Source: Escherichia phage PGT2. From it: a DNA stretch of 42,686 nucleotides. Within the stretch, counting starts at the first letter, position 1, and each line of letters opens with the position of its first letter. The DNA is taken from sequence record NC_047890.1; one strand, written 5' to 3'. This document shows positions 1,052 through 41,694 of the stretch, in pieces. Under the pieces are notes generated by a model, which searched no databases, was not told where the DNA came from, and saw nothing but the letters and a program-made list of their open reading frames with translations. The position numbers and the translations under genes are program-made.

Positions 1052-1088
1052 AAGGGGCGGGGAGTGTATCCTTGCCCCTTTCTTTTTG
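1052..1088 (+). terminator. Rho-independent terminator
   Basis: 12-bp stem aaggggcgggga / tccttgcccctt (two G-U pairs), loop gtgta, then tctttttgt. Confidence 0.6.
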
Positions 1089-1442: not shown

Positions 1443-1471
1443 TTGACAAGTTCAGAAGTAAGCAGTAAGAT
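1443..1471 (+). promoter_or_regulatory. Candidate sigma70 early promoter (TTGACA-17-TAAGAT)
   Basis: Consensus -35 ttgaca at 1443-1448; -10 taagat at 1466-1471; shares the upstream 18-mer aagaaagagattgacaag with the promoter at 1639. Confidence 0.45.
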
Positions 1472-1638
1472 GTAAATCAAGCAGTACGGGAGGAGGCGCA
1501 ACGGAAGGCGCGACACGGCGGGGAGTGATACAAGGACGCGCCAAAGGGAGAACGGATAGGAACTGCGAACCCTTCCGGATACCCGCTACGGATAGCACAG
1601 TTTGCCGGAGTATGCAGACACGGTAAGCAAGAAAGAGA

Positions 1639-1667
1639 TTGACAAGCTGGACAAGTTACCCGATAAT
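1639..1667 (+). promoter_or_regulatory. Candidate sigma70 early promoter (TTGACA-17-GATAAT)
   Basis: Consensus -35 ttgaca at 1639-1644; -10 gataat at 1662-1667; an RBS and small ORF follow. Confidence 0.55.
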
Positions 1668-2640: not shown

Positions 2641-2682
2641 GATAGCGGCATACAAATAAACGCAACGTAAATGAGGCGCACC

Positions 2683-3177
2683 ATGAAAGTATTAATTTCT
2701 GCATTCCGTAAAGAAAACGATCTGTTAACCCATATCAATAATCACGCGGAATTATTCGACCGCATCACCGCATTAGGATTGACGCCGCAGCCCGTCGATG
2801 GCGTGTGGAAAGGTGTATCGGAGTTTTCTTACATGGTACACGGTGTTACCACAGCGATGCTCAAAGCGTTTTATGCAATGGCCCGCGACTACAATCAGGA
2901 GGCTATCTTGCTTGTTGCTGATGATAACCGTGCCGCAGTAGTGCCCACCGATGGCCCGGTGATGGCCCCGATGATTGACGTTGGCGACTGGAGGGAAGTA
3001 AGCAAAGAGATCGCGATACAATTTGACGGATACACCAAGACACGCGACGGCCGCTATTTTGTCGCCGCCACTCGTGAGCAGTTCGGCCTCGCCACTCGTC
3101 GGCTGTTAGCCACACAGATGGGCGTAATCGCTGCTAACGAATATGCAGCACGTGTAAACGCAGTGGGAGGATTATAA
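2683..3177 (+). CDS. Hypothetical early protein (164 aa)
   Basis: Start at the second ATG (2683), chosen because the 28-nt block before it is 27/28 identical to the leader of ORF 2123; the provided ORF track begins at the in-frame ATG at 2671. Confidence 0.55.
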   Translation: MKVLISAFRKENDLLTHINNHAELFDRITALGLTPQPVDGVWKGVSEFSYMVHGVTTAMLKAFYAMARDYNQEAILLVADDNRAAVVPTDGPVMAPMIDVGDWREVSKEIAIQFDGYTKTRDGRYFVAATREQFGLATRRLLATQMGVIAANEYAARVNAVGGL

Positions 3178-3178
3178 A

Positions 3179-3427
3179 ATGCGCAAACTTAGTGAAATTG
3201 TACATCATACCAACGTATTCTATAACAGCAAGGGTTATCTGTGGATAACCCTGAAGGACGTGCGACCTGACGGGCGTCATCGTGTGGTAGTACGTAAAAT
3301 GTACAGCAAATACGTTAGTAATTGGTCATTGGATACAGTACGCATTAATAACGAGACTTTTCAGATTGACTCACAGATTGACCTACAACCAACGGCAAGC
3401 CATTCCGCACCATATTTTTCTAACTGA
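3179..3427 (+). CDS. Hypothetical early protein (82 aa)
   Basis: ATG preceded by SD gggagg; overlaps the stop of the upstream gene. Confidence 0.55.
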   Translation: MRKLSEIVHHTNVFYNSKGYLWITLKDVRPDGRHRVVVRKMYSKYVSNWSLDTVRINNETFQIDSQIDLQPTASHSAPYFSN

Positions 3428-3504
3428 ATCCGGGCCTATGCCGCGCACTCATGGGCGGCATACACACGCAGTCAGATCACTCCCATTAAATGAGGACACA
3501 GAGC

Positions 3505-3618
3505 ATGAACACAATAACATCCGGCCTTGCACTCATCGGCGCGATTATCGGCGTCGCTGTGTTTAACGCATTACCCTTGATTATTGGCGTGGCGGTCCTC
3601 AGTTGGTGGCTGTCATAA
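3505..3618 (+). CDS. Small hydrophobic peptide (37 aa), probable single-pass membrane protein
   Basis: ATG with SD gagga at 8-nt spacing; translation MNTITSGLALIGAIIGVAVFNALPLIIGVAVLSWWLS; below the 60-aa cutoff of the ORF track. Confidence 0.4.
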   Translation: MNTITSGLALIGAIIGVAVFNALPLIIGVAVLSWWLS

Positions 3619-3682
3619 TCCACGCACTCATAGCCACACTGTACGTTTCCCAATCGCATAAATCATTTTGAGATATACGCAT

Positions 3683-5964: not shown

Positions 5965-6270
5965 ATGAGCGAACGTATCTGCGTACCATATGCACGTAAA
6001 GGCAATCCAGACGTACACACTATCGTAATCCCAGCAGGCTTTATCAGTCTGGAAGACCTCTTGTCCCATGTCGGCTTCCAGCTTGGCATGGGCGACCAGT
6101 TGCTGGATGAGATTAACGGCCTTCTGGCACAGGAATACACAGCAGGCAAGCGCGCGCTGGCTGAAGTCCTGAGCCGGGCTACTCATAGCGCGACGTACAC
6201 TCCCAACATGGAGGATGCGCACCGTATCCTGACGGCTGAAGAATTGGGGTATGCAAATGACCGTGAGTAA
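5965..6270 (+). CDS. Hypothetical early protein (101 aa)
   Basis: ATG preceded by acgaggc-type SD. Confidence 0.55.
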   Translation: MSERICVPYARKGNPDVHTIVIPAGFISLEDLLSHVGFQLGMGDQLLDEINGLLAQEYTAGKRALAEVLSRATHSATYTPNMEDAHRILTAEELGYANDRE

Positions 6271-6361
6271 AGCCATTGGCTGGCTGATAGCCTACGCAGT
6301 GTTTTCTATAGTCGCCAACATCATCGGCGGCATCTCGTTAATTTTGTTCCTGCTCAAGTGA
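6251..6361 (+). CDS. Small hydrophobic peptide (36 aa), possible membrane protein
   Basis: Translation MQMTVSKAIGWLIAYAVFSIVANIIGGISLILFLLK; overlaps the end of ORF 5965 in another frame; weak RBS. Confidence 0.3.
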   Translation: MQMTVSKAIGWLIAYAVFSIVANIIGGISLILFLLK

Positions 6362-40957: not shown

Positions 40958-41245
40958 ATGCGTATCGACGACATCTGTTCACCCGGTTTTGTACCTAACT
41001 CCCACCGCCTTCGTCAGGAGACTGTCCGGGCTATTGCTTTCTGTGAAACCATAGGAAGCGCTGAGAAGGCCGTAGAGCTACAAAAATACTTTCGTGAGGC
41101 TATCGAATACCTTGACCGAGAAATCGTCTCCAGCGGCTTGCCAGAGAGCGAGAAGCCTATTGTGGATGCTGATGCTGTGTCACCATTCGCTGAGGAAGAA
41201 GTTGTGGCCGAACCGAAACCTAAAGCCAAAGGAGGCAAGAAGTGA
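40958..41245 (+). CDS. Hypothetical protein (95 aa)
   Basis: ATG at 40958 with SD gaggaa at 8-nt spacing (ORF track start 40943 is a TTG). Confidence 0.5.
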   Translation: MRIDDICSPGFVPNSHRLRQETVRAIAFCETIGSAEKAVELQKYFREAIEYLDREIVSSGLPESEKPIVDADAVSPFAEEEVVAEPKPKAKGGKK

Positions 41246-41694
41246 ATCTGACCGCAGCGGAGAAGTTAGTTCGACATTTTGAGGGTCTGAAGTTGGAATC
41301 GTACCTGTGTCCTGCTGGTATATGGACTATCGGGTACGGGCAGACCAAGGGTATTAAGAAAGGCATGGTGTGGACCAAGGCTCAGGCCGAGGCAGATATG
41401 TCTGCCACTGTCCGGCGCTTTGCCGAAGAAGTACGTCAACTGGTCCGCAAGGATACGACCGACGCTGAACTGAGCGCATTCACATCTCTGGCCTATAACA
41501 TCGGTACTCCGAACTTTAAGACGTCCTCTGCTCTGCGTTGGCATAATGCCCGTGAGTCCGCGTCCAAGGTATGTGCTGGTATCCGTATGTGGAACAAGGC
41601 CACCGTCAATGGCAAGAAGATTATCCTGAAAGGTCTGGTACGTCGCCGAGAGGCTGAATGCTCCGTATATACAACTGGAGACTTTAATGAATAA
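41242..41694 (+). CDS. Endolysin, phage lysozyme family (GH24 / T4-lysozyme-like)
   Basis: Motif EGLKLESYLCPAGIWTIGYGQT (Glu-8aa-Cys-5aa-Thr arrangement); GTG start with SD ggagg at 6-nt spacing; no N-terminal hydrophobic segment. Confidence 0.75.
   Translation: MNLTAAEKLVRHFEGLKLESYLCPAGIWTIGYGQTKGIKKGMVWTKAQAEADMSATVRRFAEEVRQLVRKDTTDAELSAFTSLAYNIGTPNFKTSSALRWHNARESASKVCAGIRMWNKATVNGKKIILKGLVRRREAECSVYTTGDFNE

What the first reader, a model, noticed from the sequence alone, without database searches (positions are those of the whole stretch)
3505..3618. Unannotated 37-aa hydrophobic peptide gene
A short ORF with a good RBS encodes an almost entirely hydrophobic peptide (LALIGAIIGVAVFNALPLIIGVAVL). 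It falls below the usual ORF-size cutoffs, so it is easily missed.
Basis: seen in the sequence. Interest (0 to 1): 0.4.

Follow-up and report, generated by a model that had tools for sequence, protein, structure and literature searches.

The report
Conserved 37-residue phage membrane micro-protein
The 37-codon reading frame is a real gene under purifying selection in a small group of E. coli podophages; it encodes one charge-free hydrophobic helix of unknown function made early in infection, an ordinary kind of phage gene that is already listed as "hypothetical protein" in this phage's public record.

Summary
The ORF at 3505-3618 (+) exists exactly as described: ATG, 37 codons, TAA, with GAGGA 8 nt upstream. 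The window is almost certainly Escherichia phage PGT2, about 91% identical to phiKT (Autographiviridae, Ermolevavirus).

Hydrophobicity alone is not unusual here, because random ORFs in the window score as high. Conservation is what shows a gene:
- 13 distinct DNA versions from about 20 loci all keep a 37-codon frame.
- 17 of 26 variable sites are third codon positions, and pN/pS is 0.125. The best other frame gives 0.33.
- All three stop codons occur at the same position.
- Five unrelated upstream contexts each supply an SD-like element, usually with an ATGA overlap to the preceding gene.
- The flanking early genes are swapped or deleted, but the ORF is always kept.

AlphaFold2 predicts one helix (residues 2-36, pLDDT 92.5). 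There are no charged residues. G12xxxG16, N21, P24 and W34-W35 are invariant.

No Pfam, PHROG, NCBIfam or PDB match was found. A profile search of 1.84 billion proteins found only the peptide's own cluster.

The closest analogue is T7 gp0.5, which shares genomic position, composition and a 12-residue internal repeat. Homology is not demonstrable.

"Unannotated" is wrong for PGT2, where the ORF is gp07 (hypothetical protein). It is right for phiKT. The function is inferred only: a small inner-membrane helix acting by helix-helix packing.

The parts
3505..3618 (+). Coding sequence of the 37-aa hydrophobic micro-protein (stop TAA at 3616-3618); PGT2 gp07 in the public record
   Evidence: conservation and pN/pS 0.125; name; single helix 2-36 at pLDDT 92.5.
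3492..3496 (+). Shine-Dalgarno element GAGGA, 8 nt before the ATG
   Evidence: -6.0 kcal/mol against the anti-SD; SD-like elements of -4.3 to -6.9 kcal/mol at the same distance in four other unrelated upstream contexts.
3424..3504 (+). Leader sequence. In relatives this leader precedes the DUF8033 gene; here it is fused to the small ORF by a deletion between two ATGAAYAC (Met-Asn-Thr) gene starts. It contains a hairpin at 3437-3462 whose loop carries GCACTCAT.
   Evidence: Alignment; copies in relatives; fold -16.9 kcal/mol, z -2.05. The stem is invariant, so there is no covariation evidence.
3619..3682 (+). Conserved intergenic element downstream of the ORF (TCCRCGCACTCATAGCCACACTG...CATTTTGAG). 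It carries the SD of the next gene and is one of two alternative downstream modules in relatives.
   Evidence: Role unknown; the fold is not better than shuffles.
1443..1667 (+). Two strong sigma-70-type promoter matches (TTGACA-17-TAAGAT at 1443-1471; TTGACA-17-GATAAT at 1639-1667). They probably drive the early transcript that includes the ORF.
   Evidence: 10/12 and 11/12 matches. No terminator-like site with better-than-chance support lies between them and 3505. Assigning the ORF to the early class is an inference from position.

Best explanation
Window 3505-3618 is a real early gene of an Ermolevavirus-type E. coli podophage, almost certainly phage PGT2 gene 07. Host RNA polymerase probably transcribes it from the left-end sigma-70 promoters. 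In this genome it is translated from its own SD. In most relatives translation is coupled to the preceding gene through an ATGA overlap.

The product is a 37-residue peptide with no charged residues that forms one continuous alpha-helix. It most likely embeds in the host inner membrane as a single, probably tilted, span with the C-terminal Trp-Trp at an interface.

Its likely mode of action is intramembrane helix-helix packing. The candidate contacts are the invariant G12xxxG16 motif, the always-small residue at position 28 (G/A/S), and the membrane-buried Asn21/Pro24. The partner would be a host (or phage) inner-membrane protein, or the peptide itself. That would make it a small membrane-embedded modulator of host envelope physiology during takeover or superinfection exclusion.

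Shown: it is a gene, it is under purifying selection, it is kept while its neighbours are exchanged, and it is predicted to be helical and hydrophobic. Inferred: early expression, membrane insertion, helix-packing mechanism, and target.
For: Coding:
- Window versus phiKT: 8 differences, 7 synonymous third-position and 1 Leu-to-Met.
- 13 unique DNA versions from 17 loci: 26 variable columns split 7/2/17 by codon position (binomial P 8e-4). pN/pS is 0.125 in this frame, 0.33 in the wobble-sharing antisense frame and 0.9-4.7 in the other frames (first pass).
- Stop codons TAA, TAG and TGA all occur at codon 38.
- 18 peptide variants are all 37 aa. Only conservative changes occur, at 9 positions.

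Translation signals:
- Five unrelated upstream sequences each carry an SD-like element 6-8 nt upstream.
- ATGA overlap with four different upstream genes.

Retention:
- Every related locus examined that spans this region has the ORF intact, although the flanking genes differ.
- In the window a deletion removed the upstream genes but kept the ORF precisely.

Early region:
- Strong sigma-70 matches at 1443 and 1639.
- Neighbours are an S-AdoMet lyase (PF23780, E 8e-24) and a family also seen as K1F gp0.2.

Structure:
- AF2 gives one helix, residues 2-36, pLDDT 92.5.
- GRAVY 1.74, no charged residues, summed Hessa insertion energy about 0 kcal/mol, similar to T7 gp0.5.

Precedent: T7 gp0.5 occupies the same position and is described as an uncharacterised class I gene with a putative transmembrane helix. 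Its V26I change swept populations in an evolution experiment (PMC12798971).
Against: There is no direct evidence of transcription, translation, membrane location or any phenotype.

All relatives are close (at least 89% peptide identity), so conservation is measured over a shallow tree. Part of it could reflect a DNA- or RNA-level constraint: codons 26-35 show almost no synonymous change, and the over-represented word GCACTCAT lies in and beside the ORF.

Asn21 and Pro24 make the insertion energy marginal. With no charged flanks, topology cannot be predicted.

Variable positions do not cluster on one helix face (P 0.84), so no interaction face can be read from the sequences.

No consistent gene partner exists in the neighbourhood.
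Confidence: 0.5

Rival explanations
1. The peptide is a membrane-permeabilising or depolarising agent. It would self-assemble, with Asn21 and the small residues lining or zipping an oligomer, and leak ions. Possible outcomes are shutting down host functions, excluding superinfecting phage, or tuning lysis timing, in the manner of viroporins, pinholins or type I toxins.
For: It is extremely hydrophobic, with a polar Asn in mid-helix, a GxxxG motif and an internal 12-residue repeat IIGVAV(F/L)(N/S). The peptide is too small to have a soluble domain.
Against: It lies in the early region, 38 kb from the lysis cassette (endolysin, disruptin and holin at about 41.2-42.3 kb), so it would be made from the first minutes, when depolarisation would harm the phage. 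It lacks the charged C-terminal tail typical of holins and most type I toxins (established knowledge). It has only one GxxxG, not a glycine zipper (read directly from the sequence). The antisense promoter-like site at 3693-3665 is a chance-level match.
Confidence: 0.2
2. It is a highly diverged orthologue of T7 gene 0.5 (Pfam PF26813) and shares that gene's still unknown function.
For: Both lie in the early region after the anti-restriction gene. Both are Gly/Ala/Val/Ile-rich. BLASTP gives an ungapped 21-residue alignment in register, E 0.007 for the single comparison. Both peptides have their best internal self-match at an offset of exactly 12 residues around a G(V/L)AV core: 39/1000 and 5/1000 shuffles respectively.
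Against: hhalign probability is 3.4%. The gp0.5 HMM scores the peptide at 6.0 bits, and 106 of 5000 composition-preserving shuffles do as well. The reverse test shows no signal: 2773 of 5000 shuffles score at least as well. Smith-Waterman is matched by 452 of 5000 shuffles. The exhaustive profile search of 1.84 billion representatives found no gp0.5-like protein. gp0.5 has a basic C-terminal tail and four charged residues; this peptide has none. The gp0.5 family is confined to T7-like Studiervirinae, with no intermediates.
Confidence: 0.2
3. The stretch is conserved for a non-protein reason, and the peptide is incidental. Candidates are an RNA or DNA element (hairpins, the GCACTCAT word, a recombination junction), the antisense ORF 3486-3659, or a spacer ORF that merely passes ribosomes to the next gene.
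For: GCACTCAT occurs 9 times, all on the + strand, against 1.8 expected. One copy is in the ORF and two flank it. The word is over-used even given the amino acids. Codons 26-35 lack synonymous variation. An antisense frame stays open in all loci.
Against: Substitutions follow this frame's codon structure (pN/pS 0.125 against 0.33 for the antisense frame). The antisense open stretch has no conserved start or ends, and every gene of the phage is on the + strand. Amino-acid changes are all conservative, which a mere spacer ORF would not require. The hairpins are weak and show no covariation, and there is no Rfam match. The conserved block begins and ends exactly at the start and stop codons, while both flanks are replaced by unrelated sequence.
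Confidence: 0.07
4. It is a chance open frame with no function.
For: Random ORFs in this window reach the same hydrophobicity. No database family exists.
Against: All of the conservation evidence above argues against it, as does retention across at least 20 independent metagenomic and isolate sequences with rearranged flanks.
Confidence: 0.02

Closest known systems
Bacteriophage T7 gene 0.5 protein (gp0.5; Pfam PF26813)
   Same: Both are tiny (47 aa versus 37 aa) hydrophobic Gly/Ala/Val-rich peptides encoded in the host-RNAP-transcribed early region, just downstream of the anti-restriction gene. Both contain two 12-residue repeats with a G(V/L)AV core. Both have unknown function and a putative single transmembrane helix.
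   Different: There is no statistically supported sequence relationship. gp0.5 has Lys/Arg residues and a basic C-terminus plus a true GxxxGxxxG zipper (G13-G17-G21-G25-G29). This peptide has no charge, one GxxxG, a mid-helix Asn-x-x-Pro and a C-terminal Trp-Trp. The host phage belongs to a different lineage: Ermolevavirus, with no subfamily listed in its taxonomy line, against Studiervirinae for T7.
Bacterial small inner-membrane regulatory proteins (for example AcrZ, MgrB, MgtS, CydX); from established knowledge, not tested here
   Same: They are single-helix proteins under 50 aa, often missed by annotation, that act only by binding larger membrane proteins within the bilayer. This is the mode of action proposed here.
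   Different: Those proteins are host-encoded and generally have charged flanking residues that fix their topology. There is no sequence similarity, and no homologue of the peptide in 5,426 E. coli genomes or in PLSDB plasmids.
Bovine papillomavirus E5 protein (44-aa viral transmembrane protein that activates the PDGF-beta receptor through its transmembrane helix); from established knowledge, not tested here
   Same: It is a virus-encoded protein that is almost purely hydrophobic, has no soluble domain, and depends on a polar residue buried in mid-membrane (Gln17 there, Asn21 here).
   Different: It is a eukaryotic virus protein with a disulfide-linked dimer and a known target. The resemblance is one of principle only. 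No target is known here.
Holins/pinholins and type I toxin peptides (Hok, TisB, Ibs)
   Same: They are small hydrophobic helical peptides able to damage or depolarise the inner membrane.
   Different: This ORF is not in the lysis cassette and has no charged tail. There is no convincing antisense RNA gene and no dual-start motif, and its early expression is hard to reconcile with toxicity.

Membership tests
Protein-coding gene (generic comparative criteria) | Substitutions concentrated at synonymous sites of the proposed frame, more so than in any other frame | tested here: met
   pN/pS is 0.125 in the proposed frame, against 0.33 for the antisense wobble-sharing frame and 0.9-4.7 for the others. 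17 of 26 variable columns are at codon position 3.
Protein-coding gene (generic comparative criteria) | Start, stop and length conserved while flanks diverge; ribosome-binding site present | tested here: met
   37 codons in all 13 DNA versions and 18 peptide variants. TAA, TAG and TGA occur at the same codon. The start is ATG, or GTG in 2 loci. SD-like elements occur in 5 unrelated contexts.
Protein-coding gene (generic comparative criteria) | Direct evidence of translation (ribosome profiling, mass spectrometry, tagged product) | not testable with these tools
   No expression data were available. Literature searches found no study of PGT2 or phiKT early genes.
T7 gp0.5 family (Pfam PF26813) | Significant match to the family profile | tested here: not met
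   hhalign probability 3.4%. A purpose-built HMM of 18 family members gives 6.0 bits, equalled by 106 of 5000 shuffles. The hmmscan test is void because the local Pfam copy does not detect T7 gp0.5 itself.
T7 gp0.5 family (Pfam PF26813) | Small hydrophobic early-region protein downstream of the anti-restriction gene | tested here: met
   The SAM lyase gene is at 2671-3177 and sigma-70 promoter matches lie upstream.
T7 gp0.5 family (Pfam PF26813) | Basic C-terminal tail and invariant family residues (T5, T10, G17, S19, Y31, C35, K47 of T7 gp0.5) | tested here: not met
   This peptide has no Lys, Arg, Cys or Tyr.
Holin / pinholin | Encoded in the lysis cassette next to the endolysin; transmembrane domain(s) followed by a charged C-terminal domain | tested here: not met
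   The lysis genes (lysozyme, disruptin, holin PF04550) lie at the other end of the genome. The peptide has no charged residues.
Type I toxin-antitoxin toxin | Small hydrophobic toxin ORF paired with an overlapping or adjacent antisense RNA gene | tested here: inconclusive
   There is one minus-strand promoter-like match at 3693-3665 (9/12), no better than chance (12 found against 7.4 expected). No Rfam antitoxin RNA was found. Toxicity was not tested.
Transmembrane glycine zipper ((G/A/S)xxxGxxxG or GxxxGxxx(G/S/T)) | Three small residues at i, i+4, i+8 with Gly at the centre | tested here: not met
   Read from the sequence: L8-G12-G16 and G12-G16-F20 both fail. Only the single G12xxxG16 is present, plus A9xxxA13 and A18xxxA22.
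Single-pass membrane protein | Continuous hydrophobic helix of at least 19 residues with favourable insertion energy | tested here: inconclusive
   AF2 predicts a helix over residues 2-36. The hydrophobic run covers residues 7-36. A simple Hessa-scale sum gives -0.3 to +0.8 kcal/mol, which is marginal because of N21 and P24 and similar to T7 gp0.5. No dedicated topology predictor or experiment was available.

The most novel reading that the evidence does not exclude
The peptide is a phage counterpart of the viral 'transmembrane-only' effectors such as papillomavirus E5. On this reading, a charge-free helix recognises the membrane-spanning segment of one specific E. coli inner-membrane protein through G12xxxG16, Asn21 and Pro24. 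Candidate targets are a transporter, a sensor kinase, a divisome or elongasome component, or a membrane-anchored defence protein. By switching that protein on or off in the first minutes of infection, the peptide would give the phage a host-takeover or exclusion advantage, and that advantage would explain why it is retained while every neighbouring early gene is exchangeable. T7 gp0.5 would then be an independent or very distant example of the same device.
Probability: 0.2. Interest if true: 0.6.

Novelty: new member of a known kind. Interest (0 to 1): 0.3.

Why it matters
Small hydrophobic early proteins of T7-like phages, with gp0.5 as the type example, have remained without a function for forty years. 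This peptide gives a second, independently conserved example, and it has a very simple and informative sequence: no charges, one GxxxG, and a buried Asn.

It is the one fixed element in a highly mosaic early region, which suggests that it contributes to fitness. It is also easy to test in a tractable E. coli phage (phiKT or PGT2). If a host target were found, that would add a membrane-level host-takeover mechanism and a minimal transmembrane binding peptide.

As it stands, the practical result is modest. The gene is real. It should be added to the phiKT annotation. The same method (frame-specific substitution pattern plus flank replacement) validates it without experiments.

Tried and rejected
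The 42-aa extended form was used instead.
2. Pfam, PHROGs, NCBIfam and PDB sequence searches gave nothing meaningful. The best hits were phrog_30781 at E 0.16 and PRD1_DD at E 1.9.
3. The exhaustive profile search of 1.84 billion representatives found only the peptide's own cluster.
4. tblastn against phages found only phiKT plus chance-level Mycobacterium phage hits at E 4-7. There were no matches in E. coli genomes or plasmids.
5. IMG/VR holds only the window itself and phiKT.
6. Homology to T7 gp0.5 was tested four ways and is not supported. A broader gp0.5 family search gave no bridging sequences.
7. Paralogy with the second small hydrophobic ORF (6251-6361) is marginal: 116 of 5000 shuffles score as well.
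8. RNA-structure explanations: the hairpins are weak (z -2.05, -1.77, 0.14), there is no Rfam hit and no covariation.
9. Reading CGCACTCATRG as a phage-polymerase promoter was rejected. The copies share no extended consensus and several lie inside genes.
10. Helical-face analysis of variable positions showed no clustering (P 0.84).
11. Two guessed accession numbers for PGT2 were wrong or absent from the collection. The identification therefore rests.
12. A fold search of the AF2 model was not run. A single helix cannot give an informative match.

Full report
WHAT IS IN THE SEQUENCE. It has ATG at 3505, 37 sense codons and TAA at 3616-3618, and it encodes MNTITSGLALIGAIIGVAVFNALPLIIGVAVLSWWLS. 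GAGGA lies at 3492-3496, 8 nt before the ATG. Its pairing energy with the 16S 3' end is -6.0 kcal/mol. That is about the median of the long genes of this genome and within the best 10% or so of random positions. The peptide has GRAVY 1.74 and no Asp, Glu, Lys or Arg.

Hydrophobicity alone does not single it out. Among 345 six-frame ORFs of 30-80 aa in the window, another reaches the same GRAVY and several exceed 1.4. The case for a gene therefore rests on comparison with relatives.

WHAT GENOME THIS IS. The window is IMG/VR contig UViG_2974667396. Around the ORF it is about 91% identical in DNA to Escherichia phage phiKT (Autographiviridae, Ermolevavirus).

The exact peptide and the exact neighbouring 111-aa protein are on record as PGT2_g00007 and PGT2_g00010 of Escherichia phage PGT2, on a contig of 42,686 bp, which is the window's length. 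The window is therefore almost certainly PGT2, and in that public record the ORF is already annotated as "hypothetical protein" (ATS92425.1 / YP_009795439.1). In phiKT the same ORF (record positions 41167-41277) is not annotated.

All long ORFs are on the + strand. The order is small early genes, then primase/helicase/polymerase, RNA polymerase, structural genes, terminase and a lysis cassette. Two strong sigma-70 promoter matches lie at 1443 and 1639. An S-adenosylmethionine lyase gene lies at 2671-3177 (PF23780, E 8e-24). The ORF therefore lies in what looks like the host-polymerase-transcribed early region. This placement is inferred from position.

EVIDENCE THAT IT IS A GENE. The protein database returned four clusters of exactly 37-aa proteins at 89-97% identity. 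Cluster listing raised this to 18 distinct peptide variants. I fetched the DNA for 17 loci carrying the ORF, from isolates and from independent metagenomic runs, and four more through a neighbouring gene.

- Against phiKT alone there are 8 differences: 7 synonymous third-position changes and one Leu-to-Met.
- Across 13 unique DNA versions, 26 columns vary, split 7/2/17 by codon position (P 8e-4).
- pN/pS is 0.125 in the proposed frame. It is 0.33 in the antisense frame that shares wobble positions, and 0.9-4.7 in the other four frames (first pass).
- The antisense ORF 3486-3659 is a typical shadow frame. Its ends and start are not conserved.
- The conserved block starts and ends exactly at the start and stop codons.
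- Five unrelated upstream sequences and two unrelated downstream sequences flank it.
- TAA, TAG and TGA are all used at codon 38.
- Each upstream context offers an SD-like element (-4.3 to -6.9 kcal/mol) 6-8 nt from the start.
- In most loci the ATG overlaps the stop of the preceding gene as ATGA. That preceding gene is any of four different genes, of 66, 77, 86 or 104 aa.
- In two contigs a synonymous GAA-to-GAG change in the upstream gene turns the start into GTG. The frame is otherwise intact, and the gene caller missed it there.
- The in-frame ATG at 3490 exists only in the window and overlaps the SD, so 3505 is the start.

A LOCAL REARRANGEMENT. The 80 nt upstream of the ORF in the window (3424-3504) are the leader that precedes a DUF8033 gene in relatives. 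Both genes begin ATGAAYAC (Met-Asn-Thr). A deletion between the two starts evidently removed DUF8033 and one or two further small genes in the PGT2 lineage and joined that leader and SD precisely to the small ORF. In phiKT, by contrast, two extra unannotated ORFs of 80 and 86 aa sit upstream.

Every related locus that spans this region retains the ORF, while HNH endonuclease genes and other small genes come and go around it. This points to selection on the ORF itself.

THE PRODUCT. AlphaFold2 with the shallow family alignment gives one uninterrupted helix over residues 2-36, mean pLDDT 92.5. The invariant residues include G7, G12, G16, N21, P24, S33, W34 and W35. Position 28 is always small (G, A or S). 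All nine variable positions change conservatively.

The sequence contains an internal repeat at an offset of 12 residues, IIGVAVFN / IIGVAVLS. Within the six shared IIGVAV codons the two DNA copies differ only at third positions; overall they match at 16 of 24 bases (39 of 1000 shuffles give as good a self-match).

A plain sum of the Hessa scale gives about 0 kcal/mol (-0.3 to +0.8). This is marginal because of Asn21 and Pro24, and similar to T7 gp0.5. There is one GxxxG (G12-G16) but no glycine zipper. Variable positions do not cluster on one helix face (P 0.84).

COMPARISON WITH KNOWN FAMILIES. Nothing was found in Pfam, PHROGs, NCBIfam or PDB sequences. A profile search of 1.84 billion cluster representatives returned only the family's own cluster. 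No relative was found in E. coli genomes or plasmids.

The nearest thing known is T7 gene 0.5. It encodes a 47-aa Gly/Ala-rich hydrophobic peptide in the same relative position, after the anti-restriction gene. Recent literature describes it as an uncharacterised class I gene with a putative transmembrane helix (PMC12798971; PMC11863960).

- Signals in favour of a link: BLASTP aligns 21 residues without gaps (E 0.007 for the single comparison). Both peptides have their best internal repeat at an offset of 12 residues around G(V/L)AV.
- Signals against: hhalign gives 3.4% probability. A gp0.5 HMM score of 6.0 bits is reached by 2% of composition-preserving shuffles, and the reciprocal test shows nothing. 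No intermediates exist.

I therefore treat gp0.5 as the closest analogue and only a possible distant relative (about 0.2). One tool caveat applies: the local Pfam copy does not detect T7 gp0.5 itself, so the negative hmmscan result says nothing about PF26813.

HOW IT MOST LIKELY WORKS. Shown: this is a translated-looking, selected gene for a 37-residue hydrophobic helix. Everything that follows is inferred.

A peptide this small and this hydrophobic has no possible soluble function, so the membrane is the likely site of action. The invariant GxxxG, the always-small residue 28 and a buried Asn are the classical determinants of transmembrane helix-helix association (established knowledge on GxxxG motifs and Asn-driven association).

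Early expression, distance from the lysis cassette and the lack of a charged tail argue against a holin or toxin role. I therefore favour a membrane-embedded modulator that binds a host (or phage) inner-membrane protein or self-associates. It would serve host takeover or exclusion, as the small bacterial membrane regulators and papillomavirus E5 do in their own systems.

My confidences are about 0.9 that it is a functional gene, about 0.5 for gene plus membrane-helix-packing mechanism, 0.2 for a pore or depolarising role, 0.07 for a nucleic-acid-level explanation and 0.02 for chance.

UNEXPLAINED SIDE OBSERVATION. The 8-mer GCACTCAT occurs 9 times in the window. All copies are on the + strand and all lie in the first 14.6 kb, against 1.8 expected (0 of 100 shuffles reach 9). 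One copy lies in the ORF (codons 9-11) and two flank it (3445, 3624).

Given the amino acids, GCA-CTC is over-used for Ala-Leu-Ile/Met: 3 of 12 tripeptides in long genes use it, plus the one in this ORF, against 0.5 expected. The intergenic copies are conserved in relatives and sit where gene modules are exchanged.

Codons 26-35 of the ORF show almost no synonymous change. A second constraint on the nucleic acid may overlap the gene. I could not identify it.

VERDICT. It is a new, narrowly distributed family within a known kind of element, the small hydrophobic early proteins of T7-like phages. Its function is unknown and interest is modest (0.3).

Noticed in passing
window 1126, 2413, 3445, 3529, 3624, 6741, 8086, 9281, 14591 (all + strand): The 8-mer GCACTCAT occurs 9 times against 1.8 expected, always on the + strand and only in the first 14.6 kb. 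Three copies are intergenic and conserved in relatives at junctions between exchangeable early-gene modules. Coding copies over-use GCA-CTC for Ala-Leu-Ile/Met (3 of 12 in long genes plus the one in the 37-aa ORF, against 0.5 expected). Its meaning is unknown.
   Followed up: partly
window 6251-6361 (+): A second small hydrophobic ORF (36 aa, MQMTVSKAIGWLIAYAVFSIVANIIGGISLILFLLK) overlaps the end of the preceding gene by 20 nt. It is conserved in length in L004, L016 and L018 and called as a gene in L004. Variable columns split 5/1/6, so the coding evidence is weaker. Its similarity to the 37-aa peptide is marginal (116 of 5000 shuffles).
   Followed up: partly
window 3424-3504; L016 2412-2492: The leader and SD upstream of the small ORF are those of the DUF8033 gene in relatives. 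A deletion between two ATGAAYAC gene starts removed DUF8033 and the 66/77-aa genes in this lineage and fused the leader to the small ORF.
   Followed up: yes
L001 (phiKT NC_019520) 2368-2997 and the whole region after gp31: Relative to the window, phiKT carries about 630 bp with two ORFs (80 and 86 aa). Almost all of its early-region genes are unannotated in RefSeq, including the 37-aa ORF and the 111-aa gene.
   Followed up: partly
window 2671-3177 (+): This gene matches the S-adenosylmethionine lyase family (PF23780, E 8e-24), the T3-type anti-restriction enzyme. Its phiKT orthologue is labelled 'SAM-dependent methyltransferase' (RefSeq) or 'tail tape measure protein' (GenBank), which looks like a mis-annotation.
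   Followed up: partly
L023 1260-1373; L025 21-134: In two metagenomic contigs a synonymous GAA-to-GAG change in the upstream gene converts the small ORF's start from ATG to GTG. The frame is intact, but the gene caller did not call it.
   Followed up: yes
window 3580-3612 (codons 26-35 of the ORF): There is almost no synonymous variation across 13 DNA versions, unlike codons 2-25. This suggests an additional constraint, such as pairing with the downstream element or a recombination junction. The predicted hairpin 3600-3641 is weak (z -1.77) and shows no covariation.
   Followed up: partly
window 3693-3665 (- strand): A sigma-70-like match (TTGATA-17-CAAAAT, 9/12) lies just downstream of the ORF and points back across it. 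It is chance-level in the scan, but it would be the place to look if an antisense RNA were suspected.
   Followed up: no
window 1052-1080 and 1443-1667 (+): A strong terminator-like hairpin (12-bp stem plus T-run) is followed by two near-consensus sigma-70 promoters. This is probably the left-end early control region of the phage.
   Followed up: no
tool observation: T7 gp0.5 relatives carry a precomputed PF26813 label, yet hmmscan of T7 gp0.5 against the local Pfam-A returns nothing even at E 10. Negative Pfam results for very short hydrophobic proteins in this setup should not be trusted.
   Followed up: yes
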